Shown one piece after another: positions 1,690 through 20,127 of a stretch of DNA of 24,743 bases. Below the pieces are notes generated by a model. That model had not been told where the DNA came from and ran no database searches. It saw only the letters and a list, made by a program, of their open reading frames with translations. The stretch's first letter is position 1. The number at the start of each line of letters is the position of its first letter. This DNA is from Pyrinomonadaceae bacterium (GTDB lineage: Bacteria > Acidobacteriota > Blastocatellia > Pyrinomonadales > Pyrinomonadaceae), in the NCBI GenBank assembly GCA_025929655.1, contig JAICPV010000001.1, forward strand, positions 1-24,743, in the 5' to 3' direction. Made by a program: the position numbers and the translations under genes.

Positions 1690-2325
1690 ATGAAGCGTTA
1701 TTTTCGAATTTTGTCTATTTTTGCACTCATTTCAGCAGCGTCGGTTTTCGCCGCTGCACAGGACACGAATAAGGTCGAATTTTTCGGCGGTTATTCGTAC
1801 ATGAACTTCGATACGGGTCTCGACGATTTCGACGAAGATTTCTTCGATTCGCGTGCCGGAATGCATGGCTTTAACGGGTCCATCACGGGCAACGTCAGCC
1901 GCCGTGTCGGGATCAAGTTCGACTTCTCGACCCATAGCAAGGACTTGTTCGACGATGGGTTCACGCGGGTCAAAGGTCGCAACAATCAGTTCATGGGCGG
2001 TGTTCAGTTCAAGAACAATGAAACTGACGGCCCGACACTGAAGCCGTTCGCTCACATCCTCGCCGGTGTAGCCAATCAGCGGCTTAGCTGCGAAGGCGAC
2101 TGCTTTATTGATGTGGAAGGCGGAAGCGGCGATTTCACCGAAACGCAAAACAATTTCACGGCAGCCTTCGGCGGCGGTCTCGACGTTAAAGTACACCGCC
2201 GCGTCGACATTCGCGTATTCCAGTTCGATTACAACCCGACCTGGTTCAAGGGCAATGACGCTCTTGGAACGGAAAGCTTCACGCAGCACAACGTCCGGAT
2301 CGGCGTCGGCATCGTGATCCATTAA
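1690..2325 (+). CDS. Small outer-membrane beta-barrel protein (OmpA/OmpW-like transmembrane fold)
   Basis: Sec signal peptide ending AAAQD. Alternating amphipathic strands (VEFFGGYSY, HGFNGSITGN, FGGGLDVKV, VRIGVGIVIH). GGAG at about 1677-1681. Confidence 0.8.
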   Translation: MKRYFRILSIFALISAASVFAAAQDTNKVEFFGGYSYMNFDTGLDDFDEDFFDSRAGMHGFNGSITGNVSRRVGIKFDFSTHSKDLFDDGFTRVKGRNNQFMGGVQFKNNETDGPTLKPFAHILAGVANQRLSCEGDCFIDVEGGSGDFTETQNNFTAAFGGGLDVKVHRRVDIRVFQFDYNPTWFKGNDALGTESFTQHNVRIGVGIVIH

Positions 2326-2376: not shown

Positions 2377-2471
2377 AATTCGCGCTGCCGCATGAAACCT
2401 TTGGCAGCGGTTTGTGGTATAAGTTTAGCTTTCGAGAATTAAACTTTATTCAGTTTTTTGGAGATCTAACT

Positions 2472-4247
2472 ATGTTTCGACGCAAATTTGCAGGCGTTTT
2501 GTTGACCTACGCTCTGCTTGTTCCCGTTTACTCGCTGGGCCAGACGGCGGCACCCAAGATCTTTGAAGCGCCGGCGGATGTGGTGAAGCAGATAAAAGAG
2601 GAAGGCACAACGCGCTCGCAAGTGATGCAAACGCTTTCATATATGTCCGACGTGATCGGGCCGCGTTTGACCGGGTCACCCGGGATGAAGCGCGCAAACG
2701 AATGGACGCGCGACACCATGACCAAGTGGGGTCTGCAAAACGCGCGGCTCGAGTCCTGGGGGCCGTTCGGACGCGGCTGGACGCTTAAGAAGTTTTACGC
2801 GAACGTCGATGGACCGACCGCGTTTCCGCTGATCGCATACCCAAAGGCCTGGTCGCCCGGAACCGATATACTCTTCGAGCAGGCGCCCGCGACAAATAAC
2901 AAAAAAGGAAAGAACGGCGCCGCTGCACCCGCGAACCATACAACCGCTTACACTGCCGATGTCGTGCGATTCAACGCCGCAAACGAAGCCGAGCTTGCGC
3001 AATACAAAGGAAAGTTGAAGGGCAAGATAGTACTGATCGGCGCTATCCGGGAGCTTCGAGCGCATTTCGAGCCGCAGGCCGAACGTGCGACCGAAAAGGA
3101 ACTTCTCGATCTCGCCAACGCGCCCGACCCGGCTTCGATTCGCCGCCCGGCAGGCCAATTCGGTCCCGGAAACGCTCAGCAGAACGTACTTTCTAACGCT
3201 CGCCGGATGCGTTTTCTTCATGATGAAGGCGCTGCAATTCTGCTGGATGCGGGCCGGGGCGACGGCGGTACGATCTTTGTGCAGGGGGCACAGGCAGTGC
3301 CGCCCGCAACACAAACTCCCGGTCAACCTAACCCGTCGGTCAGAGACAAGAGTGCGATAGTGCCGATCCAGATCAGCACCTCGGCGGAACACTTCAACCG
3401 GTTGGCACGAATGATCGACGCAGGCGAGAAAGTCACGATGACCGTGGACCTGGCGGTCGAGTTTCAGGACCAGGACCTCAATGCATACAACACGATCGCC
3501 GAAATTCCCGGGACAGACCTCAAGGACGAGATCGTGATGCTCGGCGGCCATTTGGATTCGTGGCAATCGGGAACCGGGGCGACCGACAACGCTGCCGGCT
3601 GTGCCGTGATGATGGAGGCGGTCCGCATTCTTCAAACGCTTGGGTTGAAGCCGCGGCGGACGATCCGCATCGCTCTTTGGTCCGGTGAAGAACAAGGTTT
3701 GCTTGGTTCACGCGCTTATGTTCGTCAACATTTCGGTTATTTCGGCGACGGCACTACGCCTGCATTCGGCGGAGGCAATAACAACACTCCCCGCGTACTC
3801 ACCAAACTTCCCGAATACGACAAATTCTCTGCTTATTACAATATCGACAACGGGACCGGCAAGATCCGAGGCGTCTACATGCAGGGTAATGAGGGAGTTC
3901 GGCCTTATTTCCGAAGGTGGCTGGAAACTTTCAAGGACGCGAAATGGTACGATCCGGCAAAGGACCTGAGCGCCAATACGCTCTCATTGGCGAATACCGG
4001 CGGTACGGATCATCTCGCATTCGACGCGATCGGGCTGCCCGGTTTCCAGTTCATACAGGACGAGATCGAGTACAGCACGCGGACGCACCACTCGAACATG
4101 GACGTCTTCGACCGCATCCAGGCCGATGACATGAAGCAGATGGCGATCATTCTCGCGATGTTTGTCTATCAGAGCGCGATGAACGACGAGAAGCTTCCGA
4201 GAAAGGCCGGTAACTGGACGGTCAAGGAAGTAAATCCAGCTCCATAA
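2472..4247 (+). CDS. Secreted M28-family Zn metallopeptidase (carboxypeptidase Q-like)
   Basis: Start at ATG 2472 behind GGAG, with signal peptide. Intact motifs GGHLDSW, GATDNAAG, SGEEQGLLGS, NIDNG, GGTDH, HHSNMD. Confidence 0.9.
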   Translation: MFRRKFAGVLLTYALLVPVYSLGQTAAPKIFEAPADVVKQIKEEGTTRSQVMQTLSYMSDVIGPRLTGSPGMKRANEWTRDTMTKWGLQNARLESWGPFGRGWTLKKFYANVDGPTAFPLIAYPKAWSPGTDILFEQAPATNNKKGKNGAAAPANHTTAYTADVVRFNAANEAELAQYKGKLKGKIVLIGAIRELRAHFEPQAERATEKELLDLANAPDPASIRRPAGQFGPGNAQQNVLSNARRMRFLHDEGAAILLDAGRGDGGTIFVQGAQAVPPATQTPGQPNPSVRDKSAIVPIQISTSAEHFNRLARMIDAGEKVTMTVDLAVEFQDQDLNAYNTIAEIPGTDLKDEIVMLGGHLDSWQSGTGATDNAAGCAVMMEAVRILQTLGLKPRRTIRIALWSGEEQGLLGSRAYVRQHFGYFGDGTTPAFGGGNNNTPRVLTKLPEYDKFSAYYNIDNGTGKIRGVYMQGNEGVRPYFRRWLETFKDAKWYDPAKDLSANTLSLANTGGTDHLAFDAIGLPGFQFIQDEIEYSTRTHHSNMDVFDRIQADDMKQMAIILAMFVYQSAMNDEKLPRKAGNWTVKEVNPAP

Positions 4248-4695
4248 ACAAAACGCCCTCGTGCGGGTTTTTGTAGTAAGGTTCGATCGGGCGAAAGCCG
4301 TGAGACTCGTAAAGTTTCACGGCTTTACCCATTTTCGGCGGATACGTGTCGAGACGCATTTTCTGGTAGCCGATCTCGCGGGCGTCGGCGATGAGTTTTT
4401 CGATCAGTTTATTTCCGAAGCCGTGGCCGCGAGCATTTTCTCGAAGGTAGAGCCTTTTCATCTCGCACACTCCGTCCTCGATCTTGCGCAGGGCGATGCT
4501 GCCGGCGGGTTCTTCGGCAACATAGGCTAAATACAATCGACCTGCCGGCGGAGCGTATTTCCCGGGCAGACCTGTGACCTCCTCCTCAAAACTTTGGAAG
4601 CACAGCGACATTCCGAGCCAGGTTTCGTACTCGCGAAACAATTCACGTGCGAGGTCGATGTCCTTTTCTATCTCTACCAGGCGAACCGCGAACAT
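4222..4695 (-). CDS. GNAT-family N-acetyltransferase
   Basis: CEMKRLYL followed by acetyl-CoA loop ARGHGFG, MRLDT, and AVKLYESHGF. Confidence 0.85.
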   Translation of the reverse strand: MFAVRLVEIEKDIDLARELFREYETWLGMSLCFQSFEEEVTGLPGKYAPPAGRLYLAYVAEEPAGSIALRKIEDGVCEMKRLYLRENARGHGFGNKLIEKLIADAREIGYQKMRLDTYPPKMGKAVKLYESHGFRPIEPYYKNPHEGVLFMELDLLP

Positions 4696-4762
4696 ATGTA
4701 GATTTTACTCACTGGCTGAAATAAAATCGAAACAGGAATTGTTCGAAGCTGGTCTATTGTTC

Positions 4763-6175
4763 ATGGATAGAAGGTCGTTCGTCACAACCGCCGGAGCTTC
4801 TGCTGCCGGGCTCGCCGTTGCGTCATCCTCGCTCGAACGGCTTGTTGAGGCGATGGTCGGAAGACGAACTGCGGAATATTTCGTTCCCGGTTTCGGGGAA
4901 CTGCTTCCAACGCCAACCAGGAATACCGGCGAGACCTTCCTCGCCCTGCCAAAAGGTTTCGAGTACAACGTCATCGGAAAAGTTAAGTCGCAGATGTCGG
5001 ACGGGCGTCCGACGCCGTCGCGTCACGACGGGCAATGGACATTCAAGGTTGGCCGCGAGCTGCGGATCGTGCGGAACCATGAAGTGTCGAACAGTTCGCT
5101 GCCGGTACCTAACGCGGGCATCGGCACGGCAAACCATTACGACGAGACGTGCGGCGGCGGGACCACGACGCTAGTGATCGATCCGAAAAAGAAGGAGATC
5201 GTTCGCGATTTCGTCAGCCTTTCGGGAACGCTGATCAACTGTTCGGGAGGGCCGACGCCGTGGAATTCTTGGATCTCATGCGAGGAAACGACCTTAGGGC
5301 CAACCGTGCGAACGAACAGCAGCACGGGCAGGAAAACGGGCGGGTTCCTGAAGCCTCACGGATACTGCTTCGAAGTGCAAGCTTCGGCGAACAACAATCT
5401 GCCGCCGGTGGCTCTGAAAGCGATGGGACGCTTCACGCACGAGACGGTCGCTGTCGACCGAAAGACCGGCGTCGTATACGAAACTGAAGATTTGAATCCA
5501 AGCGGCTTTTACCGTTTCATTCCGAAGCGAAACAAGCGGCTCGCTGAAGGCGGTACGCTGCAGATGCTCGCGATCGAAGGGAAGCCGGAATACGACACTC
5601 GTACCGGTCAAAGACAGGGCAGTGTTTTGCCGGCGACTTGGGTGACGATCGACGATCCCGATCCTGCACATGCCGATGTCGATCCGTCGGCGGTGTTCAA
5701 GCAAGGGAAGGCAAAAGGCGGTGCTTCTTTCAATCGTCTGGAAGGGTCCTGCATGGATGATCGCGGGAACGTCTATTTCGACGCGACCAGCGGCGGCGAC
5801 AAACGCGGCGGGCAGATATGGCGTTACGAGCCGATGGGACGCGACCGCGGGAACCTCCGCCTGCTGTTCGAGTCGCCCAGCCGCGAGATCCTCGACATGC
5901 CGGACAATATGTGCTTGATGCCGAAGAGCAAACTCTTGTTCATTTGCGAAGACAGCGATTACGTCGGCGAAGGCGGCACGCCCGATAACTACGTCCGAAT
6001 TCTTACACCTGAGGGCAAGATGGCGAACTTTGCGAAGAACATCGTGAAGGGCTTTGAGCGTTCCGAGTTCGCCGGCTCGTGCTTTTCGAACGACGGCAAG
6101 ATATTCTTCCTCAACCTTTACACGATAGGGGCCACCTTCGCGATCTGGGGCGACTGGTCGAAATTCCGCTCGTAA
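4763..6175 (+). CDS. phoX: PhoX/DUF839-family alkaline phosphatase with Tat signal
   Basis: Probable start at ATG 4763 gives MDRRSFV (twin-arginine). Motifs RNHE, NCSGGPTPWNSWISCEE, GRFTHE, RLEG, PDN, EFAG. The track's 63-aa N-terminal extension overlaps the GNAT gene and is unlikely. Confidence 0.8.
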   Translation: MDRRSFVTTAGASAAGLAVASSSLERLVEAMVGRRTAEYFVPGFGELLPTPTRNTGETFLALPKGFEYNVIGKVKSQMSDGRPTPSRHDGQWTFKVGRELRIVRNHEVSNSSLPVPNAGIGTANHYDETCGGGTTTLVIDPKKKEIVRDFVSLSGTLINCSGGPTPWNSWISCEETTLGPTVRTNSSTGRKTGGFLKPHGYCFEVQASANNNLPPVALKAMGRFTHETVAVDRKTGVVYETEDLNPSGFYRFIPKRNKRLAEGGTLQMLAIEGKPEYDTRTGQRQGSVLPATWVTIDDPDPAHADVDPSAVFKQGKAKGGASFNRLEGSCMDDRGNVYFDATSGGDKRGGQIWRYEPMGRDRGNLRLLFESPSREILDMPDNMCLMPKSKLLFICEDSDYVGEGGTPDNYVRILTPEGKMANFAKNIVKGFERSEFAGSCFSNDGKIFFLNLYTIGATFAIWGDWSKFRS

Positions 6176-6297: not shown

Positions 6298-7101
6298 ATG
6301 GAATTGGCGGTCGAAAAATTCAAGGTCGCGGACGAGCCCTTTTACCTGCCGATCGGCAGGGAAGTCGAGCTATTTGAGGCGGCGTACGCCGCGAAACTGC
6401 CCGCGATGCTCAAGGGCCCGACCGGTTGCGGCAAGACGCGCTTCGTCGAGCATATGGCGTGGCGGCTCGGCCGTCCGCTGATCACGGTGGCATGTCACGA
6501 AGATCTTTCATCGACCGATCTCGTCGGCCGATTCCTGCTCGAAGGCGAAGAAACTGTTTGGCACGACGGGCCGCTGACCTCTGCGGTTCGCGCCGGAGCG
6601 ATCTGTTATCTCGATGAGGTCGTCGAAGCGAGAAAAGATACCGTAGTTATCATCCATCCACTGACCGATGACAGACGGCGGCTGCCGATAGAAAAACGGG
6701 GAACGGTTCTCGATGCGCCGGACGATTTTATGCTCGTCGTGTCGTACAATCCCGGCTACCAGTCGATCCTCAAAGACTTGAAACAATCGACACGCCAACG
6801 GTTTGTCGCGATGGAGTTCGATTACCCCGAGCCGGAGGCGGAAACGCAGATCGTTGCGAAGGAAGGAGGCATCGACGAAGCCACCGCTGCCGATCTGGTA
6901 AAGATCGGGCAAAAGGTGCGCAACCTTCGCGGTCACGGCCTTGAAGAAGGAGTCTCGACACGCCTTCTTATTTACGCTGCCCAGATGATCGCGAAAGGGA
7001 TTTCACCCGTCGACGCTGCCGAGGTCGCGATCTGCTCCCCCATCACCGACGACCGCGATCTCCAGCGCAGCATCCGCGAGATCGTGACGACGATTATTTG
7101 A
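6298..7101 (+). CDS. CbbQ/NirQ/NorQ-family (MoxR-class) AAA+ ATPase
   Basis: Walker A GPTGCGKT, Walker [39 protein letters not shown]. No symbol is given because the client pathway is unknown. Confidence 0.9.
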
Positions 7102-7105
7102 CAAT

Positions 7106-7477
7106 ATGGAACCTGAACAGCAAAAAGTACTTTTCAAACCGGAACGCCATCTTTGCCAGGAAAGATGGAGATCATAGTTAGTCCCAGCGACGGTACACGG
7201 TTCCGCGTCGAATGCTCGACCGTTCTCGCCTTTACCTGCTTTCGACGAAAGCTGTGCTCCAATGCGCTCGTTCAGCACGGTCGAAACCGAACAAGCACGG
7301 ATCAGTGCGTATCCTTGCCTTGATTCTCCCTGGATCAAGTCATACGAAGGTTGCCAATATGACGCAGAGAGTAACCCCTTTCCGCTAAATCATTACCTGA
7401 TCTTCGGCGGCGACAATATCGTTGAGTTCCTCTGCCAAAACGAACCGGTTGTTTCGCAACTTCCCAATTGGAACTGA
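7106..7477 (+). pseudogene. Small hypothetical gene (about 123 aa) broken by two compensating 1-nt frameshifts
   Basis: MEPEQQKVLFKP (from 7106), shift at about 7140 to GTPSLPGKMEIIVSPSDGTRFRVECSTVLAFTCF, shift at about 7242 back to DESCAPMRSF...NHYLIFGGDNIVEFL...NWN*. The unshifted frame has TAG at 7175-7177. Confidence 0.6.
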
Positions 7478-7518
7478 TAAGTAAGCCACTGTGGCCACGC
7501 TAATTCGCTGAGCTACGC

Positions 7519-7557
7519 AAAAAGAAAAAAGGCGAAACCATTAACTGATCCGCCTTT
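7519..7557 (-). terminator. Rho-independent terminator of the M1-like/TPR gene
   Basis: On the minus strand, AAAGGCGGA...TTCGCCTTT stem (12-nt loop) is followed by a T-rich tract. Confidence 0.6.
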
Positions 7558-7576
7558 GAATGGTATCGAATTCAAA

Positions 7577-9661
7577 TCACCTGGTAGCGGTGGCGTCCTT
7601 CTCTTTAGGATCATACGGGGTGGCCTGGTATTTGCGAACGGCGGCCTGAGCGCCGTCGTAGTCGTCGTTTAGGTCAGCGGCTCGTTTGTACATCGCGATG
7701 GCACGCGTGCGGTCGCCTTTGGCGTCGTAGGCGTTGCCCATTTTGATGTTCGACCAGACCTGTAGCCATTGCGGGTTGATGTTCCCGCTCAAGGCAGCTT
7801 TGAAATTATCGATCGCCAGATCGTAATTTCGCTGCTCAAGGAATAACAGGCCCAGATGGTAGTAGATCCACGAATTCGAACGGTCGAGTTTCAAAGCAGC
7901 TTCGAACTGCGCCTGTGCGTCGGCGAAATTGCCTTCCTTCATCTGCTCGATGCCGCGGCGGGCAACCGACGAGACGCGAAGGTCCGGTGAAATTCGGAGC
8001 AGTTTGTATCCCGGATCGATCACAACATTCAGCGGCTTCCCGTCGGCTTCGATGTTGAAGTCGGCGGTGGCGTCTTCAACGCGAACCGCCTGGATCTTAG
8101 AGCCATTTTCGCCTTCGGACCGCAGCATTATGTCGAGCGGTAACTTCAAATTATCGTAATTCTGCTTCACCGTGCCGCGGGCGATGAACTTCCCGCCGCG
8201 CGTTCGAATTATCTGGTAATCGGCCGTAAACTCCGGCACGCCCGTGCTTTCGACCCAGCGGGCGAAAAAGTAACGCATGTTCTGACCTGCGAGGCGCGTA
8301 GCCAACTTTTCAAAATCGTCGATCGAGGCGTTCTTGCCGCGAAACTCGTTGAGGAAAGTGCGCAGAAGCTGGTTGAATTTCGCTTCACCGAGCGTATCGC
8401 GCAAAAGGCGATATACGGCCGGCCCTTTGCCGAACATGATGTACTGGTACGCTGCCGACTGGTCGTCAAGATTCGCCGGGGCGCGCAGAAGCGACGCGGT
8501 CTGCTCGAAGGTCAGTGCTTTTTCAAGCAGTTCGCGGCGTGCGAAATCCAGCTTCGCGCCGGTCAGCATCGTTTCGCGAAGTGCGAAAGCGCTGTACTCC
8601 GCAAGGCCCTGCGAAAGCCAAACATCGTCGAAAGATTTCAGCCCGACGGTCAACCCCCACCATTGATAAGCAGCTTCGCGCTGCAGCCTTTCGGCGGTCG
8701 CGTCGCGCGGCTGTTCGAACTGCCGGCTCGAGATGAAAAGCATCCCGTTCGAGGAATAGAAATCGAGGCTTTCGTCGTCGATCTGCGCGACCGTGAGGGT
8801 CTTGCCCATCGCCGGTGCCCCAAACGACTTGGTATAAAAATCCAACGCTTTCCCAAGCGTTTCCGCGAACGATTGCACGTTTGCGTCGAAGCCCGGCATT
8901 GTATTGAAGTTGATCGCGTACTCGCCGAATTTCAAATTCCGCGGAACGTACTTGCCGTATGCGAAATTGCCCACGAGCCCCGGTTTCGATTGGACGAACC
9001 GAGATTTACCGCCAGTCGGTGTCACCGGCGAATCGCTGTAGCCCGCGAACTGAAGGCCCGAAGGCAGCGAGATCGTGATATCGGAGGTCGCAAGATCGGC
9101 GGCGTAATTGTGGAACGGAAACCAGCGTGCGGCGTACATCAAATAGCCTTCTTCCGGGCCGATATACGCGAGCCTTTTGCTCAGCAGCGGACCGCCGCTG
9201 GGCGTATTCAGCACGCCAGAATATTTGAAAAGCAATGTCACGGTTGAACCCGCAGGAACCGTATCACCGAGGTCCACGCGAACGCTTGGCCCGAGGTCTG
9301 AAACTCCCACCTGGTCCTGAACGAAGGTCACATCACCGAGTTTCGGTGTTGCGACTGCCGGCGGCGTTGCGGTTTTTCCTTTTGCGGCCGCAGCCGCGAC
9401 GGGCGTCTTATCGGTCCTCGCGATGGAGTCGACCTTCAGCGAACCGTTTAGCTCAAAGGTCACGGAACGCGTTTCTTCCTGTGGCGTAAATGTCACCGCC
9501 GTTGAAGCCGTCAGTTTGTTCTCGATCGGGTTAAGCTGGGCGTCGATCAGGTACGAAGAAACGTCGAACGGCGTCCGTTTCACCTGCTGCGCCGAGCCGG
9601 CCGTGGCTAAAGCGGCCAAGACGATCGCGGCCGCAAAAAAACTGTTCAAAAATCGGTTCAT
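7577..9661 (-). CDS. Secreted M1-aminopeptidase-fold protein with C-terminal TPRs; Zn-binding motif degenerate
   Basis: Signal peptide. REAAYQWWG...WLSQGLAEY aligns to HExxHQWFG...WLNEGFATY. MFGKG aligns to YxKG. C-terminal helical repeats (AQAQFEAALKLD..WIYYHLG, AIDNFKAAL, MGNAYDAKGD) are TPR-like. Confidence 0.85.
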   Translation of the reverse strand: MNRFLNSFFAAAIVLAALATAGSAQQVKRTPFDVSSYLIDAQLNPIENKLTASTAVTFTPQEETRSVTFELNGSLKVDSIARTDKTPVAAAAAKGKTATPPAVATPKLGDVTFVQDQVGVSDLGPSVRVDLGDTVPAGSTVTLLFKYSGVLNTPSGGPLLSKRLAYIGPEEGYLMYAARWFPFHNYAADLATSDITISLPSGLQFAGYSDSPVTPTGGKSRFVQSKPGLVGNFAYGKYVPRNLKFGEYAINFNTMPGFDANVQSFAETLGKALDFYTKSFGAPAMGKTLTVAQIDDESLDFYSSNGMLFISSRQFEQPRDATAERLQREAAYQWWGLTVGLKSFDDVWLSQGLAEYSAFALRETMLTGAKLDFARRELLEKALTFEQTASLLRAPANLDDQSAAYQYIMFGKGPAVYRLLRDTLGEAKFNQLLRTFLNEFRGKNASIDDFEKLATRLAGQNMRYFFARWVESTGVPEFTADYQIIRTRGGKFIARGTVKQNYDNLKLPLDIMLRSEGENGSKIQAVRVEDATADFNIEADGKPLNVVIDPGYKLLRISPDLRVSSVARRGIEQMKEGNFADAQAQFEAALKLDRSNSWIYYHLGLLFLEQRNYDLAIDNFKAALSGNINPQWLQVWSNIKMGNAYDAKGDRTRAIAMYKRAADLNDDYDGAQAAVRKYQATPYDPKEKDATATR

Positions 9662-13620: not shown

Positions 13621-13648
13621 TCGACATGCCCATCGAATCAGGTATAAT
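13621..13648 (+). promoter_or_regulatory. Sigma70-type promoter of the liv operon
   Basis: TCGACA (13621-13626), 16-nt spacer, TATAAT (13643-13648). Confidence 0.7.
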
Positions 13649-13736
13649 GCGTGTTTGCGCGAATCTTAAACCCAATGTCTGTTGCAAACGTAATTTCGTT
13701 TGGTCGATACAAATTCAAAACACTTGCGAGGTAATT

Positions 13737-15038
13737 ATGACTAGATTTCTTTTGGCCATTAGTTTGGTCGTTTCGGTGATGCTGTCGGTCGCATGCGTTC
13801 AAAAAGGCGGCAACGACGTAGCCGGTCCGGCCGGCGACACGATAAAGGTCGGTGTCTACGGCGATCTGACCGGTCCGACATCGAGTTTCGGGCAGTCGAC
13901 CAAGAACGGCATCGAGCTCGCGGTCGAAGAGATCAATAATGCCGGCGGCATCAACGGAAAAAAGGTCACGCTCGTCGTCGAGGACGATCAGGGCCGTCCC
14001 GAGCAAGCCAAGACCGTCATTTCGAAGCTGATCAACCAGGACAAGGTGCAGGCTGTTCTGGGCGAGGTCGCGTCGAGCAATAGCCTTGCTGCCGCACCGG
14101 TCGCTCAGGAAGCGAAGATCCCGATGATCACTCCTTCCTCGACCAACCCGAAGGTGACCGAAGTGGGCGATTACATTTCACGCGTTTGCTTTATCGATCC
14201 TTTCCAGGGTTCAGTCATGGCGAAATTCGCCGCCAATACGCTGAAGGCAAAATCCGCGGCGATCATCGGCGATGTGCAGTCCGACTACAGCAAGGGCCTC
14301 ACACAGTTTTTCCGTCAGGAATTCGAAAAGCTCGGCGGGCGGATCGTTTCGGAGCAAAGCTACGCTCAGACCGATCCCGATTTCAAGGCCCAGTTGACGG
14401 CGATCCGAAACACCAACCCGGACGTGATCTACATCCCCGGCTATTACGGGCAGGTCGGCATCATCGCGCGCCAGGCACGTGAACTCGGCATGAACATGCC
14501 TCTCCTCGGCGGCGACGGCTGGGATTCGCCGGAGCTTTGGAAGCTGGGCGGCGACGCACTGAAAAACTCTTACATTTCAAATCATTATTCGGCCGATAAT
14601 CCGGCGCCGGAAATTCAGAATTTCGTTAAGACCTACCAGGCGAAATTCAATACCGTTCCGGATGCACTCGCTGCCCTCGCTTACGATGCGATGAAAGTTC
14701 TGGCAGACGCGATCAAGCGTGCCGGCGGGGCTAACGACAGCGCAAAGCTCAAGGACGCGATCAATGCGACAAAGAACTTCGCCGGCGTAACAGGCACGAT
14801 AACGCTCGATTCCTCGCGGAACGCGGTGAAGCCGGCGGTCGTGCTTTCGTTGAACCCTTCAGCCTCCAAATTCGAATTCAGGGAAACCATCTATCCGGAA
14901 GGGATGACCCCGCCGACGGCTTCCACGACGGCCGCCAATACCAATTCGACAGCCAACACAAATGCGCCGGCGAATTCGAATATGAATACGGTAAGCAACA
15001 CCAACACGGCCTCTAATTCGGCCAATTCTACAAGGTAA
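13737..15038 (+). CDS. livK: Branched-chain amino acid ABC transporter substrate-binding lipoprotein (LivJ/LivK family)
   Basis: GAGG then ATG 13737. Lipobox-like LSVAC. IKVGVYGDLTG, EDDQGRPE, GEVASSNSLA, GGDGW motifs. Asn/Thr/Ser/Ala-rich C-terminal tail. Confidence 0.88.
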   Translation: MTRFLLAISLVVSVMLSVACVQKGGNDVAGPAGDTIKVGVYGDLTGPTSSFGQSTKNGIELAVEEINNAGGINGKKVTLVVEDDQGRPEQAKTVISKLINQDKVQAVLGEVASSNSLAAAPVAQEAKIPMITPSSTNPKVTEVGDYISRVCFIDPFQGSVMAKFAANTLKAKSAAIIGDVQSDYSKGLTQFFRQEFEKLGGRIVSEQSYAQTDPDFKAQLTAIRNTNPDVIYIPGYYGQVGIIARQARELGMNMPLLGGDGWDSPELWKLGGDALKNSYISNHYSADNPAPEIQNFVKTYQAKFNTVPDALAALAYDAMKVLADAIKRAGGANDSAKLKDAINATKNFAGVTGTITLDSSRNAVKPAVVLSLNPSASKFEFRETIYPEGMTPPTASTTAANTNSTANTNAPANSNMNTVSNTNTASNSANSTR

Positions 15039-15044
15039 GAAGTA

Positions 15045-15087
15045 GGAATTGGGCCCGGGGATCTATGTGATCTCCAGGTCCAATTCC
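15045..15087 (+). other. Stable stem-loop between livK and livH (probable mRNA-stabilising or partial-termination hairpin)
   Basis: 19-bp stem 15045-15063 / 15069-15087 with 2 G-U and 1 mismatch, loop TATGT, and no U-tract. Such hairpins commonly follow binding-protein genes in ABC operons. Confidence 0.65.
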
Positions 15088-15125
15088 CCCGAATAGGCTT
15101 TTCGTTCCGGCGAGCTTCCGCCTCT

Positions 15126-16043
15126 ATGGATACTTTCGTTCAGCAGCTAATTAACGGACTCACCATCGGGTCGATCTATGCGTTGATCGCGCTCGGATAC
15201 ACGATGGTTTACGGTATCCTGCGGCTGATCAACTTCGCCCATGGCGACATATACATGCTGGGCGCGTACGCCGGCTTCATAATCGCCACCTCGATGGGTT
15301 TTGCTGCGAATCCGTCGGCGATCGGCTTCGCTGTCACCCTTGTAGGTTCAATGGCAATAGCGGCCGCGGTTGGCATGGCCATTGAACGATTTGCGTATCG
15401 CCCCGTAAGAAAATATTCGAAGATGACGACGCTGATCACCGCGATCGGTATGTCGCTTTTCATCGAATATCTTTTCGTTTTTATCTTCTCCGGAACTCCG
15501 CGTTCGTTCCCTCAGCTGCTGCCTAACGAGAACATCACGCTCTTCGGTAACGCCACGATCTCTACCTCGCAGATCCTGATCTTTGTCGTGTCGATGCTGC
15601 TGATGTTCCTGCTGCAGTGGATCATTTACAAAACTAAGATCGGCAAGGCGATGCGGGCCGTCTCATTCAATCTGAACTCGGCGAAATTGATGGGCATCAA
15701 CACGAATTTCGTGATCGCCTTCACTTTTGCTCTCGGTTCGGCTTTGGCGGCCGCGGGCGGCGTCCTTACCGCACAATATAATCCGAAGATAGAGCCGCTG
15801 ATGGGCATCATGACGGGGCTGAAGGCTTTTGTTGCGGCGGTTTTGGGGGGGATCGGAAACATCCCGGGAGCAGTGCTCGGTGGACTGCTGATCGGGGCCG
15901 CGGAGACTTTGGTCGTGGGATATGGCGGTTATATCGGCGTGCCATCGACGTTCAGGGACGCGGTCGCGTTTGCGATCCTGATCCTCGTTCTGCTTTTGAG
16001 GCCCGCCGGGCTTTTGGGTTCGAACGTTCAAGAAAAAGTTTGA
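15126..16043 (+). CDS. livH: Branched-chain amino acid ABC permease
   Basis: QQLINGLTIGSIYALIALGYTMVYGILRLINFAHG, KIGKAMRAVS, GLKAFVAAVLGGIG. Confidence 0.93.
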   Translation: MDTFVQQLINGLTIGSIYALIALGYTMVYGILRLINFAHGDIYMLGAYAGFIIATSMGFAANPSAIGFAVTLVGSMAIAAAVGMAIERFAYRPVRKYSKMTTLITAIGMSLFIEYLFVFIFSGTPRSFPQLLPNENITLFGNATISTSQILIFVVSMLLMFLLQWIIYKTKIGKAMRAVSFNLNSAKLMGINTNFVIAFTFALGSALAAAGGVLTAQYNPKIEPLMGIMTGLKAFVAAVLGGIGNIPGAVLGGLLIGAAETLVVGYGGYIGVPSTFRDAVAFAILILVLLLRPAGLLGSNVQEKV

Positions 16044-16047
16044 CGAT

Positions 16048-17097
16048 ATGTCTTGGTTAAAGAACATCGGTGCCGTGGTTGCCATCTTTGCCGTTCTTTA
16101 TGTGCTGAACGCGATGATGAGCAGCGCGGGCTTTTTCGGAACCGGGATAAACGATTATCAGAGCCGGTTGCTGGTGTTCATCGCTATCAACATCATCCTC
16201 GCTACGTCGCTCAACCTGATCAACGGCTTCACCGGCCAGTTCTCGATCGGCCACGCGGGCTTCATGGCGATCGGAGCTTACGCGTCGGCTTACTTTTCAA
16301 ATGTTTACGGCGAATCGATCGTAAGGTCGTTTTCTTTTCTCGGCGAAACAGCTGCGGTAAGCGTTGTTCTCCTGATCGCGATAATCGTCGGGGCGTTGGT
16401 CGCCGCTTTGATGGGCCTTATCGTCGGCATTCCGAGTCTGAGGCTCAAAGGTGACTATCTCGCGATCGTAACGCTCGGTTTCGCCGAGATCATCCGCATC
16501 GTGATCTTGAACATCGACGCGGTAGGCGGTGCGACCGGATACTCGGTGCCCGGATACGCAAACTTTTTCTGGATCGGCTTGTTCGCGATCGTCACGATCG
16601 TCGTCATCAACAATATCGTCAATTCCGATTCCGGCCGAGCTCTGGTTTCGATCCGCGAGGACGAGCTCGCTGCAGAGGCGATGGGCGTGAACACGACACG
16701 ATACAAGGTTACGGCATTCGTGATCGGTTCCGCCTTTGCGGGTATCGCGGGCGTCCTCTTCGCTCACAACAACAAGTTTCTTCATACTAACGACTTCCAG
16801 TTCATCAAATCGTTCGAGATCATCATCATGATCGTGATCGGCGGGATGGGTTCGATCACCGGCGCGATCCTCGGCGCGATCATCGTGACGCTGCTGCCCG
16901 AGCTTCTACGCATGCTGCCGGACGTAACTCTGGGCGGCTTCACCGTTAGGTTCGCGGACCTCCGGCTGGTGATCTTCGCGTTGATACTGATCGTAACCAT
17001 GATCGTCAGGCCGCAGGGCCTATTGGGTACGATGGAAATTGGCCATATTTTCAAGCGTTTTCGCCGTGCCGATAAGCCGACCGGAGGTATGAAATAA
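16048..17097 (+). CDS. livM: Branched-chain amino acid ABC permease
   Basis: LNLINGFTGQFSIGHAGF, LRLKGDYLAIVTLGF, GRALVSIREDELAAEAMGVN. Confidence 0.93.
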   Translation: MSWLKNIGAVVAIFAVLYVLNAMMSSAGFFGTGINDYQSRLLVFIAINIILATSLNLINGFTGQFSIGHAGFMAIGAYASAYFSNVYGESIVRSFSFLGETAAVSVVLLIAIIVGALVAALMGLIVGIPSLRLKGDYLAIVTLGFAEIIRIVILNIDAVGGATGYSVPGYANFFWIGLFAIVTIVVINNIVNSDSGRALVSIREDELAAEAMGVNTTRYKVTAFVIGSAFAGIAGVLFAHNNKFLHTNDFQFIKSFEIIIMIVIGGMGSITGAILGAIIVTLLPELLRMLPDVTLGGFTVRFADLRLVIFALILIVTMIVRPQGLLGTMEIGHIFKRFRRADKPTGGMK

Positions 17098-17873
17098 TGG
17101 CGGCCACGAACGGAAACCAGGTACTGCGGACGCAAAACGCGACCATTCGCTTCGGCGGCCTCGTCGCGGTCAACGAGCTGGATATGGACGTCCGGCAGGG
17201 CGAGATCTACGGCCTGATCGGGCCGAACGGGGCGGGGAAAACGACGATCTTCAACCTCCTCACCGGTGTCTACGAACCCACGTCCGGCGATATCAATATT
17301 TTGGGAACGCGCGTCAACGGCCTGCGTCCTTATCAGATCTCGCGGCTCGGCGTTTCCCGAACTTTCCAGAACATCCGCCTTTTTCCGAGCATGACGGTTC
17401 TGGAAAACGTTGTGACCGCCTGTCACCGCCACGCAAAACAATCGATGGCGGATGCCGTTTTCCGCCTACCGCGCTATTTCAAGGACGAACAGGAACATCG
17501 CGATTTCGCTCTAGAGCTGTTGAGCATTTTCGAGCTGGAAAAATACAAGAACGAAGGCGGAACTTCTCTCCCGTATGGGAACCAGAGGCGGCTGGAGATC
17601 GTTCGTGCCCTGGCGACGCGCCCGCAGCTTCTTTTGCTCGACGAACCCGCCGCGGGGATGAACCCGTCGGAGCAGGAAGACCTGACCGCTCTGATCAAAG
17701 AGGTTCGCGACAAATTCAACCTGACGATCATCCTTGTCGAACACAACATGCGCGTCGTGATGGGCGTCTGCGACCGCATCCAGGTGGTCGACTACGGCAA
17801 ATCGATCGCGCTCGGACTGCCGCAGGAGATCAAGAGCGATCCGAAGGTGATCGAAGCGTATTTGGGAGATTAG
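17097..17873 (+). CDS. livG: Branched-chain amino acid ABC ATP-binding protein
   Basis: FGGLVAV, GPNGAGKTT, RTFQNIRLF, LPYGNQRRLEI, LLLDEPAAG, VIEAYLG. Confidence 0.93.
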   Translation: MAATNGNQVLRTQNATIRFGGLVAVNELDMDVRQGEIYGLIGPNGAGKTTIFNLLTGVYEPTSGDINILGTRVNGLRPYQISRLGVSRTFQNIRLFPSMTVLENVVTACHRHAKQSMADAVFRLPRYFKDEQEHRDFALELLSIFELEKYKNEGGTSLPYGNQRRLEIVRALATRPQLLLLDEPAAGMNPSEQEDLTALIKEVRDKFNLTIILVEHNMRVVMGVCDRIQVVDYGKSIALGLPQEIKSDPKVIEAYLGD

Positions 17874-17936
17874 TTCGTGGTTCGTTGATCGTTGTTCGTT
17901 GCATTCATCACGATCAACCAACAACCAACAACGAAC
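17873..17936. repeat. Heptad-unit palindrome filling the livG-livF gap
   Basis: Left arm TTCGTGG TTCGTTG ATCGTTG TTCGTTG. Right arm CACGATCAACCAACAACCAACAACGAAC. The arms are 22/27 complementary. Confidence 0.85.
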
Positions 17937-17942
17937 GTATTT

Positions 17943-18647
17943 ATGTTAACGCTCGATAATGTTTCCGTCAGCTATGGCGCGATCGAAGCTCTGACCGGCA
18001 TAAATTTGCACGTTGAGAAGGGCGAGGTCGTTACGCTGATCGGCGCAAACGGCGCGGGGAAAACGACCACGCTTAGGACCATCACGGGGTTGCTCGATCC
18101 GATTGCCGGCCGTGTCGTTTACGAGGGGAACGAGATCCAAGGCGTTCCGACGCACAAGCTGGTTTCGAGGGGAATCGCGATGTCGCCCGAGGGCCGCGGC
18201 GTTTTTGCGAACCTTAGCGTCCGTGAAAATCTTGAGATGGGCGCGTATATCCGCAAGGACAAAAAAGCTATCGCAAGCGACATGGAACGCGGTTTCGAGC
18301 TTTTCCCGCGGCTCAAAGAACGCGAAGCGCAAAAGGCGGGAACACTGTCTGGAGGCGAACAGCAGATGCTTGCGATGGCACGCGCGCTGATGTCGAAACC
18401 GCGGCTCCTCTTGCTTGACGAACCTTCGCTCGGGCTAGCCCCTCTCGTCGTTCACACGATATTCGAAGCGATCGAGCGGATCCGCCAGGAGGGTGCGACT
18501 ATCCTGTTGGTCGAGCAGAACGCGAATGCCGCACTGCACCACTCCGACCGCGCGTATGTGCTGGAAACGGGCCGGATCGTGATGGAAGGCGATTCAAAAC
18601 AGCTCGCGCAGGACCCGAGAGTTAAGGAAGCATACCTCGGCGAGTAA
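17943..18647 (+). CDS. livF: Branched-chain amino acid ABC ATP-binding protein
   Basis: Start at ATG 17943 (MLTLDNV). GANGAGKTT, PEGRGVF, LSGGEQQMLA, LDEPSLGLAP, VKEAYLG. Confidence 0.93.
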   Translation: MLTLDNVSVSYGAIEALTGINLHVEKGEVVTLIGANGAGKTTTLRTITGLLDPIAGRVVYEGNEIQGVPTHKLVSRGIAMSPEGRGVFANLSVRENLEMGAYIRKDKKAIASDMERGFELFPRLKEREAQKAGTLSGGEQQMLAMARALMSKPRLLLLDEPSLGLAPLVVHTIFEAIERIRQEGATILLVEQNANAALHHSDRAYVLETGRIVMEGDSKQLAQDPRVKEAYLGE

Positions 18648-18708: not shown

Positions 18709-20127
18709 ATGGCGAATCGCGACAGAAAAAACTGGTGGCGTTGGCTGGCGGTCGTTGGATGTCTCGTCGGAGTATATGCATTGGTTCCCGAGACGGCCGC
18801 CCCGATCGAACACCGGGCGCTTCTGGCGATCTTTATTGCTACGATCGTTGGTTCCATCGTTCAGCCGCTGACGGGAGCGGCGATGGTGCTGCTCGGGGTC
18901 GTGGCTCTCGCGCTGTTTCGCGTTGTCCCGATCGAAAAGGCGCTAAGCGGTTACGCGGATAAATACGTCTGGCTGGTTCTCGCCGCGTTCTTTATCTCAC
19001 GCGCGATGATAAAAACCGGGCTCGGTCACCGCATTGCATTGATCTTCGTACGGCTGATCGGCCGCAAGACTCTGGGGCTCGGATATTCGCTGGTTTTCAC
19101 CGATTTCATTCTCGCGTCCTTCATCCCGTCAACCGGTGCGCGTTCGGGCGGCATAATCCTGCCTATCGCACGGAGCATTACGGAAACGTACGATTCGCGA
19201 CCGGAAGACGGTACCGAAGGGCGGCTCGGCACATTTCTGATGTCGATGCTTTACCAGAGCGAAGTAATTTTGTGTGCGACATTCCTCACGGGCCAGGCGT
19301 CGAATGTGATCATCGCCGGATTCGCGCGGCAGCACGCGGGCATCGATCTTAATTATTCGATCTGGTTCGTTTCCGCGATCGTTCCAGCGCTTGTTTCGCT
19401 AATTGTGATCCCGCTGATGATCTACCGGCTGTTTCCGCCGGAGGTCAAGGAGACGCCGCACGCCGTCACGTTCGCTCACGCAGAGCTGGAAAAACTCGGC
19501 CCGCCGTCCAGGCACGAAAGGCTTTTACTGGCAGTTTTCATTTGTGTTGTAGCCCTCTGGATAACCGCAAGGCTGCATGGCATAGACGCGACGGTGATCG
19601 CGCTCGTCGGCATCTCCGCACTGCTCGTTTCCGGCGTGCTTGAGTGGCGCGACCTGATCGACGAAACGCACGCTTGGGAAGTTTTCATCTGGTACGGCGG
19701 CCTCGTGATGATGGCAACTGCTCTGGGGGAGACAGAACTGCCGAAACTTTTCGCGGGCGGGGTAGCGTCATTGACGGGCGGAATGTCGTGGCCGGTCGCC
19801 CTCGCGATCCTCGCACTCGTTTTCTTTTACGCGCATTACGCGTTCGCCTCGATCACCGCGCACGTTACAGCGATGTTCATTCCTTTTCTGGCGGTTACGG
19901 TCGCGGTCGGCGCACCGGCCGGATTGACCGTATTAGTTCTGACTTATTTCGCCAATCTTAGCGCGGGCCTGACGCACTATGGCACGACACCCGCCCCGGT
20001 CTATTTCGGATTAGGTTATGTAACACAAAAACGGTGGTGGACGATCGGGCTGATCGCCTCGATACTGAATATCGTGATCTGGTCTCTCATCGGACCCGTA
20101 TGGTGGAAAGTTTTGGGTTGGTGGTAA
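18709..20127 (+). CDS. DASS-family (CitT/2-oxoglutarate-malate translocator-like) anion transporter
   Basis: AFFISRAMIKTGLGHRIAL, IPSTGARSGG, FLTGQASN, YAFASITAH, LTHYGTTPAP, WWKVLGWW. Confidence 0.9.
   Translation: MANRDRKNWWRWLAVVGCLVGVYALVPETAAPIEHRALLAIFIATIVGSIVQPLTGAAMVLLGVVALALFRVVPIEKALSGYADKYVWLVLAAFFISRAMIKTGLGHRIALIFVRLIGRKTLGLGYSLVFTDFILASFIPSTGARSGGIILPIARSITETYDSRPEDGTEGRLGTFLMSMLYQSEVILCATFLTGQASNVIIAGFARQHAGIDLNYSIWFVSAIVPALVSLIVIPLMIYRLFPPEVKETPHAVTFAHAELEKLGPPSRHERLLLAVFICVVALWITARLHGIDATVIALVGISALLVSGVLEWRDLIDETHAWEVFIWYGGLVMMATALGETELPKLFAGGVASLTGGMSWPVALAILALVFFYAHYAFASITAHVTAMFIPFLAVTVAVGAPAGLTVLVLTYFANLSAGLTHYGTTPAPVYFGLGYVTQKRWWTIGLIASILNIVIWSLIGPVWWKVLGWW

What the first reader, a model, noticed from the sequence alone, without database searches (positions are those of the whole stretch)
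7577..9661. Secreted M1-aminopeptidase pseudoenzyme fused to TPRs
Established: M1 peptidases need HExxH(x18)E Zn ligands, a GxMEN exopeptidase motif and the Tyr of YxKG. Seen: REAAY (H to R, H to Y), WLSQG (E to Q), MFGKG (Y to F) and no GxMEN, while the flanking fold residues (QWWG, W, GLAEY, FFARWV) and the full-length ORF are preserved. Loss of all three Zn ligands plus the catalytic Tyr in an intact gene points to repurposing rather than decay. Inference: a non-catalytic periplasmic peptide-binding or scaffold protein using TPRs to recruit partners.
Basis: partly seen in the sequence, partly recalled or inferred. Interest (0 to 1): 0.7.

Follow-up and report, generated by a model that had tools for sequence, protein, structure and literature searches.

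The report
Secreted zinc-less M1 peptidase homologue with TPRs
This soil acidobacterium carries a well-conserved secreted protein with the full shape of an M1 aminopeptidase but none of its zinc-binding residues, so it is very probably a non-cutting binding protein that databases wrongly call an aminopeptidase.

Summary
The ORF at 7577..9661 (-) encodes a 694-aa protein with a Sec signal peptide. It has a four-domain M1 aminopeptidase fold (Pfam E 1.3e-17; Z about 30 to F3, ERAP1 and IRAP) and three C-terminal TPRs.

Alignment to solved M1 enzymes places REAAY on HExxH, WLSQG on WLNEG, MFGKG on YxKG and QIDDE on GAMEN.

The gene is not decaying:
- It was found in 40 of 41 related genomes, spanning seven families of the class.
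- R328 and E329 are invariant, and Q351 is nearly so.
- dN/dS is 0.02-0.07 in every domain.

- Relatives that keep HExxH also carry the TPR tail, and it lies where M1 domain IV normally sits. It is therefore an inherited lid rather than a new recruiting module.
- Those same relatives also lack GxMEN and the domain-I glutamate.
- The Tyr slot varies between Y and F within the family.

The protein belongs to a large, well-supported clade of M1-TPR proteins. Most of its subfamilies have their own degenerate zinc sites, and databases name them aminopeptidases.

My best reading is a non-catalytic periplasmic peptide or protein binder. Its ligand and partners are unknown. A first-stage note of this scan recorded the same motif pattern in another genome.

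The parts
7577..9661 (-). Complete CDS, 694 aa: M1-fold pseudopeptidase with a C-terminal TPR domain (P0001)
   Evidence: AF2 model with pLDDT 86.9 and pTM 0.82
9590..9661 (-). Sec-type signal peptide, residues 1-24, with a likely cleavage site after G-S-A. There is no Cys, so it is not a lipoprotein.
   Evidence: Read directly from the sequence. 95 of 95 orthologues have a basic n-region, a hydrophobic core and a small-x-small site before a conserved QQ. No dedicated signal-peptide predictor was available.
8897..9574 (-). Domain I, the N-terminal beta domain (residues 30-255). It includes a disordered Ala/Pro/Thr-rich loop at residues 86-108 (nt 9338..9406).
   Evidence: Secondary structure and pLDDT; VIA alignments start at model residue 24-32
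9095..9145 (-). Domain-I cleft segment, residues 173-189 (Y-L-M-Y-A-A-R-W-F-P-F-H-N-Y-A-A-D). It aligns to the canonical segment that holds the N-terminus-anchoring Glu; here that Glu is replaced by hydrophobic residues.
   Evidence: 10 of 17 positions are invariant across the class. The own-genome canonical M1 has Q-G-E at this place.
8237..8896 (-). Domain II, the thermolysin-like former catalytic domain (residues 256-475)
   Evidence: Pfam PF01433 covers residues 297-469
8771..8785 (-). QIDDE (293-297) in the GxMEN slot; D295 lies opposite the GAMEN Glu
   Evidence: Alignment. I-D-D-E-S is invariant or nearly so in 120 homologues. D295 is invariant class-wide.
8666..8680 (-). REAAY (328-332) in the HExxH slot: His1 to Arg, general-base Glu kept, His2 to Tyr
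   Evidence: R is 120/120, 80/80 and 16/16. E is 117/120 and 16/16. Position 332 varies among Y, F, M, L and I.
8606..8620 (-). WLSQG (348-352) in the WLNEG slot: third zinc ligand Glu to Gln
   Evidence: Q is 120/120 and 15/16; the one exception has His.
8423..8437 (-). MFGKG (409-413) in the YxKG slot: transition-state Tyr to Phe
   Evidence: This slot is polymorphic Y/F in the family.
7997..8236 (-). Domain III, a small beta sandwich (residues 476-555)
   Evidence: Six strands; aligned to M1 domain III
7607..7996 (-). C-terminal helical domain (residues 556-685): three TPRs plus a capping helix, lying where M1 domain IV sits
   Evidence: Pfam TPR_1, TPR_2 and TPR_8; consensus-TPR structures at E 1e-12 to 1e-48; model residues up to 693 align into domain IV of ERAP1, IRAP and F3; dN/dS 0.00-0.03 in the close orthologue pairs
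7520..7557 (-). Terminator-like hairpin followed by a T-run, 20 nt after the stop codon. It suggests a monocistronic unit.
   Evidence: Sequence. The fold is -13.4 kcal/mol with z only -1.5, so this is weak evidence.

Best explanation
The gene encodes a secreted (periplasmic or beyond) pseudopeptidase. It has the complete M1 aminopeptidase fold, but all three zinc ligands are replaced (His to Arg, His to Tyr, Glu to Gln). It therefore cannot be a zinc metallopeptidase.

It is a core, single-copy, strongly constrained gene of its acidobacterial class (records name Pyrinomonadaceae and Blastocatellia). It sits beside an ordinary, fully equipped secreted M1 enzyme encoded elsewhere in the same genome.

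The most likely mechanism is inferred, not shown. The old substrate cleft between domains I and II is kept as a binding site for a peptide or an unfolded protein segment. That cleft is still lined by invariant residues, including D295, R328, E329, Q351 and K412. The three-TPR domain, inherited from catalytically equipped ancestors, takes the place of helical domain IV as a lid or second binding face.

The invariant Arg and Gln probably bridge the two former zinc-binding helices in place of the metal. Both N-terminus anchors of true aminopeptidases are absent: the domain-I Glu and the GxMEN motif. Any bound peptide is therefore probably not held by its free amino end in the classical way.
For: Shown here:
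- M1 homology and fold: Pfam E 1.3e-17; AF2 pLDDT 86.9 and pTM 0.82; Foldseek E about 1e-28; VIA Z about 30 over 490-590 residues.
- Residue-level replacement of the zinc ligands.
- Conservation of R, E and Q in 120 close homologues, 80 named genomes and 15 class-level orthologues at 42-49% identity.
- Nei-Gojobori dN/dS of 0.02-0.07 in 12 close orthologue pairs. Domain II is 0.00-0.06 and the TPR domain 0.00-0.03.
- The gene was found in 40 of 41 relatives, including 16 of 16 genomes from six other families, and in all 11 class genomes of a phylum sample.
- A signal peptide in 95 of 95 orthologues.
- A canonical M1 with GGMEN, HELAH, WLNEG and YSKG elsewhere in the same genome.
- TPR tails also occur in HExxH-bearing relatives.

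From the literature: all 18 mutants of the HExxHx18E motif of aminopeptidase B lost activity (PMC2241622).

Class-invariant residues are concentrated in the cleft segments: 10 of 17 in residues 173-189 and 9 of 11 in residues 326-336, against 106 of 694 overall.
Against: - No binding, metal content or activity was measured, and no ligand or partner is known.
- The general-base Glu (E329) is kept, and many members keep the Tyr. That leaves room for residual or altered chemistry.
- I had no model coordinates. Whether the cavity persists and whether R328 fills the metal site was therefore not checked.
- Gene neighbourhood gives no functional clue. Only family-level synteny was seen, with a PLP decarboxylase in 29 of 41 loci and an MFS transporter in 20 of 41, and there is no operon.
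- The invariance of R328 and Q351 could be purely structural.
Confidence: 0.6

Rival explanations
1. It is still a hydrolase, but metal-independent. The conserved Glu329 acts as general base, with Gln351 and/or Arg328 polarising the scissile carbonyl. This would resemble the Glu/Gln dyad of glutamic (eqolisin, G1) peptidases, rebuilt on an M1 scaffold.
For: E329 is kept in 117/120 and 16/16 sequences, Q351 in 120/120 and 15/16, and R328 in all. The Tyr slot is Y in 109 of 120 close homologues. The cleft segments are highly conserved.
Against: - No precedent is known to me for metal-free catalysis in clan MA.
- Sister degenerate subfamilies replace the Glu as well (RRxAY, NTIAH, NNIAR), so the clade as a whole does not need it.
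- The Tyr slot drifts freely between Y and F.
- One class-level orthologue has His in place of Gln.
Confidence: 0.08
2. It still binds a metal through a different set of ligands, for example E329 with D295, D345, D346 or H184, and works as an atypical metallopeptidase.
For: Several acidic residues and one His near the old site are class-invariant: D295, D345, E329 and H184.
Against: - All three canonical ligands are gone at once, and position 332 is any hydrophobic residue.
- Every tested mutant of the zinc motif in aminopeptidase B was inactive (PMC2241622).
- An Arg side chain at ligand position 1 would repel a cation.
Confidence: 0.05
3. It is a purely structural or scaffolding envelope protein. 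The M1 body is only a rigid platform with no use for the old cleft, and the TPR concave face does all the partner binding.
For: The TPR domain is the most constrained part, with dN/dS 0.00-0.03 in the close pairs. It also has many class-invariant non-canonical residues: R562, R568, R569, Q610, N612, D618, W632, W636, D646, R651 and R653. Periplasmic TPR proteins often act as adaptors (established knowledge, e.g. NlpI, BamD).
Against: - Domain II is constrained almost as strongly, with dN/dS 0.00-0.06 in the close pairs.
- The cleft motifs are invariant, which a mere platform would not require.
- TPRs are inherited from HExxH-bearing relatives and lie in the domain-IV position. Their conservation may reflect packing against the body.
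Confidence: 0.2
4. It is a decaying or recently inactivated aminopeptidase gene, that is, a pseudogene in the making.
For: None beyond the missing catalytic residues.
Against: - The ORF is intact in all orthologues inspected.
- dN/dS is 0.02-0.07.
- The same substitutions are fixed across a whole class, down to 42% identity.
Confidence: 0.01

Closest known systems
Active four-domain M1 aminopeptidases (tricorn-interacting factor F3, ERAP1, IRAP, PepN/APN, LTA4H)
   Same: Same overall fold, in the same order: beta domain I, thermolysin-like domain II, beta-sandwich domain III and a helical C-terminal domain. VIA Z is about 30. Scaffold motifs are shared: QWWG after the first helix, W-L-x-x-G-[LF]-A, x-K-G and F-F-x-x-W.
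   Different: - There is no HExxH, no third Glu, no GxMEN and no domain-I Glu anchor; this sequence has Phe for the Tyr.
- The helical domain is only three bona fide TPRs (about 130 aa) instead of the roughly 300-aa ARM/HEAT-like domain IV.
- It carries a signal peptide.
M1-TPR proteins that keep the zinc site
   Same: Same M1 + C-terminal TPR architecture, similar length, and the same lack of GxMEN and of the domain-I Glu. P0133 and P0144 fall inside the same well-supported clade (SH-aLRT 99) as the target.
   Different: They retain H-E-x-x-H and the third Glu, so they may be active enzymes. The target's subfamily has R-E-x-A-[YF] and Q fixed.
TAF2, the TFIID subunit with an aminopeptidase-like domain
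   Same: A eukaryotic M1-fold protein used for protein-protein interaction rather than catalysis. It appears among the Foldseek hits (7edx_B, E 2e-25). Its aminopeptidase-like domain is described in PMC4309443.
   Different: It is nuclear, eukaryotic, part of a megadalton complex, and has no TPR tail or signal peptide. No specific relationship beyond the family fold was found.
Tma108 (yeast M1 homologue that binds nascent chains)
   Same: An M1 family member proposed to use its substrate pocket for binding rather than cleavage. It is the only M1 entry in the pseudopeptidase review PMC11266112.
   Different: Tma108 keeps HExxHx18E, whereas the protein here has lost all three ligands. Tma108 is cytosolic and ribosome-associated.
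Degenerate LytM (dLytM) factors EnvC and NlpD of Gram-negative bacteria (from my own knowledge; not tested here)
   Same: Secreted bacterial metallopeptidase homologues that have lost their zinc ligands and act as regulators or adaptors in the cell envelope. This is the best functional analogy for a periplasmic pseudopeptidase.
   Different: They belong to a different family and fold (M23, not M1). Their partners (amidases) are known, whereas no partner is known here.

Membership tests
Peptidase family M1 (homology and fold) | Significant match to the Peptidase_M1 catalytic-domain profile | tested here: met
   PF01433 E 1.3e-17, 64.6 bits against a cut-off of 27.7, residues 297-469
Peptidase family M1 (homology and fold) | Multi-domain M1 architecture: beta domain I, thermolysin-like domain II, beta-sandwich domain III, helical domain IV | tested here: met
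   AF2 model with pLDDT 86.9; Foldseek E about 1e-28; VIA Z about 30 with 490-590 residues aligned to F3, ERAP1 and IRAP over model residues 25-693
Active M1 zinc aminopeptidase | HExxH with two His zinc ligands and the general-base Glu | tested here: not met
   The slot reads R-E-A-A-Y. Both His are replaced and the Glu is kept.
Active M1 zinc aminopeptidase | Third zinc ligand Glu, 18 residues after HExxH (WLNEG) | tested here: not met
   W-L-S-Q-G, with Gln in 120 of 120 homologues
Active M1 zinc aminopeptidase | GxMEN exopeptidase motif | tested here: not met
   The slot reads Q-I-D-D-E. The motif is also absent from HExxH-bearing M1-TPR relatives.
Active M1 zinc aminopeptidase | Transition-state-stabilising Tyr of YxKG | tested here: not met
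   Phe410 in this protein. The slot is Y/F polymorphic in the family.
Active M1 zinc aminopeptidase | Zinc content and peptidase activity | not testable with these tools
   Needs purified protein
TPR repeat proteins | Repeats of the 34-residue helix-turn-helix motif matching TPR profiles | tested here: met
   TPR_1 at 1.4e-12, TPR_2 at 1e-11 and TPR_8 at 2e-9, all above cut-off. Seven helices at residues 559-680. Consensus-TPR structures match.
Pseudoenzyme (pseudopeptidase) | Homologue of an enzyme family that lacks essential catalytic residues yet is maintained by purifying selection | tested here: met
   Residue loss; dN/dS 0.02-0.07; class-wide conservation
Pseudoenzyme (pseudopeptidase) | Demonstrated lack of catalysis | not testable with these tools
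   Inferred from the mutagenesis of aminopeptidase B (PMC2241622).
Sec-secreted protein | N-terminal signal peptide with a basic n-region, a hydrophobic core and a small-x-small cleavage site | tested here: met
   Read from the sequence. A hydropathy test passed in 95 of 95 orthologues. No SignalP-type predictor was available, so the cleavage site is inferred.

The most novel reading that the evidence does not exclude
The clade of M1-TPR proteins around this gene (36 representative clusters, 34 of them without a complete zinc site, each subfamily with its own fixed replacement residues) is a large, undescribed radiation of secreted bacterial pseudopeptidases. They would act as envelope peptide receptors or adaptors. 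Alternatively, in the R-E...Q subfamily, the protein could be a metal-free hydrolase with a Glu/Gln/Arg site built on a zincin scaffold.
Probability: 0.3. Interest if true: 0.7.

Novelty: new variant of a known kind. Interest (0 to 1): 0.5.

Why it matters
Pseudopeptidases of the M1 family are so far discussed only for eukaryotes. TAF2 is one example. Tma108 is the only M1 entry in a 2024 review (PMC11266112), and it still has its zinc motif. The bacterial examples of the concept known to me are in other families, such as the dLytM factors (own knowledge).

Here a zinc-less M1 protein is a core, strongly constrained secreted protein of a whole class of abundant soil Acidobacteriota. It belongs to a wider M1-TPR clade found in several phyla. 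Where sources name members of that clade, they call them 'M1 family aminopeptidase', 'aminopeptidase N' or 'TPR repeat protein'.

Two things follow:
- It flags a systematic misannotation that inflates the predicted peptidase repertoires of soil bacteria.
- It offers a tractable case of how an exopeptidase cleft is re-used once the metal is lost.

The practical weight is moderate until a ligand or phenotype is found.

Tried and rejected
I measured dN/dS instead on close pairs among species-level genome loci. Pairs that include the window have saturated dS (1.7-2.0) and are less reliable.
- Gene neighbourhood showed only family-level synteny: a PLP decarboxylase in 29 of 41 loci, an MFS transporter in 20 of 41 and a CbbQ/NorQ ATPase in 9 of 41. 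These lie on other strands or behind a divergent gene, so there is no operon and no functional inference.
- The Rfam scan of the whole window found no match.
- The consensus promoter and terminator scan was at background level.
- Literature searches for a described bacterial M1-TPR or M1 pseudopeptidase found nothing specific. One search failed on a term that was too short.
- The model coordinates are not exposed, so I did not measure cavity volume, the position of R328 or the TPR-body contacts.
- No complex-prediction job was sent, because no candidate partner exists.
- ORF 7003..7338 (-) has no family, overlaps the end of the CbbQ gene, and has no counterpart in 41 related loci. I treated it as spurious.
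- The weak third 'M1' hit in the genome (C213, 23.6 bits, below cut-off) has HEIFH but no Pfam family. I left it out.
Full report
**What is there.** The minus-strand ORF at 7577..9661 is intact and encodes 694 aa.
- Pfam finds one Peptidase_M1 domain (E 1.3e-17, residues 297-469) and three TPRs at about residues 563-670, all above the curated cut-offs.
- NCBIfam finds only far sub-threshold matches to the aminopeptidase N equivalogs: 51 bits against a cut-off of 591.
- The N-terminus is a typical Sec signal peptide without a lipobox Cys. All 95 orthologues with a complete N-terminus show the same design, ending in a small-x-small site before a conserved QQ.
- A possible Shine-Dalgarno sequence (AAGGGA) lies upstream of the ATG.
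- A hairpin followed by a T-run lies 20 nt after the stop codon. Its statistics are weak.
- The neighbours are on the other strand: a convergent CbbQ/NorQ ATPase and a divergent MFS transporter. The gene therefore looks monocistronic.

**Checking the motif claims.** I aligned the protein by phmmer to solved M1 enzymes, namely puromycin-sensitive aminopeptidase and tricorn factor F3.
- R328 and Y332 lie on the two His of HExxH, and E329 on the general base.
- Q351 lies on the third zinc ligand.
- F410 lies on the Tyr of YxKG.
- The GAMEN slot reads Q-I-D-D-E, with D295 opposite the Glu.
- An alignment with the genome's own canonical M1 shows that the domain-I Glu, which anchors the substrate N-terminus (Q-G-E), is replaced by Y-L-M.

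**Fold.** An AlphaFold2 model built from a 53-sequence alignment is confident, with pLDDT 86.9 and pTM 0.82.
- Low-confidence stretches are the end of the signal peptide (residues 20-28), an Ala/Pro/Thr-rich loop at residues 86-108 and the last five residues.
- Foldseek gives E about 1e-28 to IRAP, PSA, ERAP1 and F3. TAF2 of TFIID (7edx_B) also appears.
- VIA-align gives Z about 30, with 490-590 aligned residues spanning model residues 25-693. These reach deep into domain IV of the enzymes, for example ERAP1 residues 50-842.
- The two-domain Deinococcus M1 aligns to model residues 27-555 only.

The protein therefore has the whole M1 body plan, and the TPR helices stand where helical domain IV normally stands.

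**Is it maintained?** Yes.
- *Close homologues.* There are more than 3000 homologues; the best 120 are at least 71% identical. Their named sources are Pyrinomonadaceae or Acidobacteriota MAGs, labelled 'M1 family aminopeptidase', 'aminopeptidase N' or 'TPR repeat protein'. Among those 120, R328 is 120/120, E329 117/120 and Q351 120/120, and I-D-D-E-S is essentially invariant. Position 332 is any of Y, F, M, L or I. The Tyr slot is Y in 109 and F in 11.
- *Named genomes.* Eighty named species-level genomes give the same picture.
- *Genome searches.* An orthologue was found in 40 of 41 relatives: 23 of 24 in the genus and 16 of 16 in six other families of the class. A phylum-wide sample of 151 genomes has the orthologue in all 11 genomes of the class (the window's own included) and weaker relatives in 30 others. 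That sample includes the unpublished G088, one of those 30, used only for that tally.
- *Class-level orthologues.* Fifteen orthologues at 42-49% identity keep R and E in 16 of 16 sequences (the 15 plus the window's own protein) and Q in 15 of 16. The Tyr slot is F or Y.
- *Selection.* Nei-Gojobori dN/dS in 12 close orthologue pairs is 0.02-0.07 overall, 0.00-0.06 in domain II and 0.00-0.03 in the TPR domain.
- *Paralogue.* The same genome also encodes a canonical secreted M1 with GGMEN, HELAH, WLNEG and YSKG. The target is thus a long-diverged paralogue, not the cell's only M1.

**Wider family.** A search of the M1 part against 50%-identity cluster representatives gives 12,389 hits.
- The nearest lineages nearly all have degenerate zinc sites, and each has its own fixed pattern: R-E-x-A-Y with Q, R-R-x-A-Y with D, N-T-I-A-H with N or D, and N-E-V-S-R with N.
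- In a tree of 54 sequences, 34 degenerate representatives and two HExxH-bearing ones (P0133, P0144) form one clade with SH-aLRT 99. The target's subfamily is a well-supported group of six (SH-aLRT 99). The tree needs at least three changes of state, although one origin is not excluded by the well-supported branches.
- Members with and without the zinc site share the M1 + TPR architecture and the lack of GxMEN and of the domain-I Glu.
- ESM Atlas look-alike clusters with M1 + TPR occur in Acidobacteriota, Aminicenantota, Bacteroidota and Verrucomicrobiota.

**Interpretation.**
- *What follows firmly.* This is not a zinc aminopeptidase. In aminopeptidase B, all 18 mutants of the HExxHx18E motif were inactive (PMC2241622).
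- *What is inferred.* The cleft segments are the most conserved stretches of the protein: 10 of 17 and 9 of 11 positions are class-invariant, against 15% overall. Domain II is constrained almost as strongly as the TPR domain. The simplest reading is that the cleft is still used, as a binding site.
- *The TPRs.* They are inherited from relatives that keep the zinc site and occupy the domain-IV position. I therefore read them as a lid or second binding face rather than a newly acquired recruiting module.
- *R328 and Q351.* They may simply tie the two former zinc helices together. I could not check this without coordinates.
- *Rivals.* These are a metal-free hydrolase using E329 with Q351 or R328, an alternative metal site, and a pure TPR scaffold. 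They cannot be excluded by computation and are listed with odds in the rival explanations.

**Comparison with what is known.**
- M1-fold non-enzymes are known in eukaryotes. TAF2 is described in PMC4309443. Tma108 is the only M1 entry in the review PMC11266112, and it still has HExxH.
- Secreted bacterial pseudopeptidases are known in family M23 (the dLytM factors; from my own knowledge).
- I found no paper describing a bacterial zinc-less M1-TPR family.
- A first-stage note of this scan recorded the same motif pattern (REAAL, WLSQG, TPR tail) in another genome. My data show that REAAL is a common variant, present in 11 of 80 genomes.

**Verdict.** The novelty class is a new variant of a known kind, of moderate interest.

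Noticed in passing
G000 contig C382, locus L001:745-2439 (+): The same genome encodes a canonical secreted M1 peptidase of 564 aa with a three-domain layout. It has intact GGMEN, HELAH, WLNEG and YSKG motifs and a signal peptide. It is a natural positive control for any assay of the pseudoenzyme.
   Followed up: partly
G000 contig C213, locus L003:606-2090 (+): A 494-aa secreted protein with an HEIFH...YEGF zincin-like motif. It gives only a sub-threshold M1 hit (23.6 bits) and matches no Pfam family. It may be an unclassified gluzincin.
   Followed up: no
window 7102..7576: A 475-bp stretch between the convergent CbbQ/NorQ gene and the target has no convincing gene. ORF 7003..7338 (-) has no family and no counterpart in 41 related loci. 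The only feature found is a terminator-like hairpin at 7520..7557.
   Followed up: partly
window 2412..6175: Two further secreted-type hydrolase genes lie upstream: an M28 peptidase (611 aa) and a PhoX alkaline phosphatase (533 aa). An OMP beta-barrel gene is at 1690..2325. This neighbourhood is conserved in only a few relatives (2-4 of 41).
   Followed up: partly
window 13626..18647: A complete branched-chain amino-acid ABC uptake operon: a periplasmic binding protein, two permeases and two ATPases. A DASS-family (sodium:sulfate/dicarboxylate-type) symporter gene follows at 18709..20127.
   Followed up: no
clusters P0133 and P0144 (representative library): These M1-TPR proteins sit inside the mostly degenerate clade and keep HExxH and the third Glu. 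They lack the Tyr at its usual position (F or Q there; P0144 has a Tyr one residue later). They also lack GxMEN and the domain-I Glu. They may be intermediates, or enzymes with a non-aminopeptidase specificity.
   Followed up: partly
I did not examine them. None lies inside the target gene.
   Followed up: no
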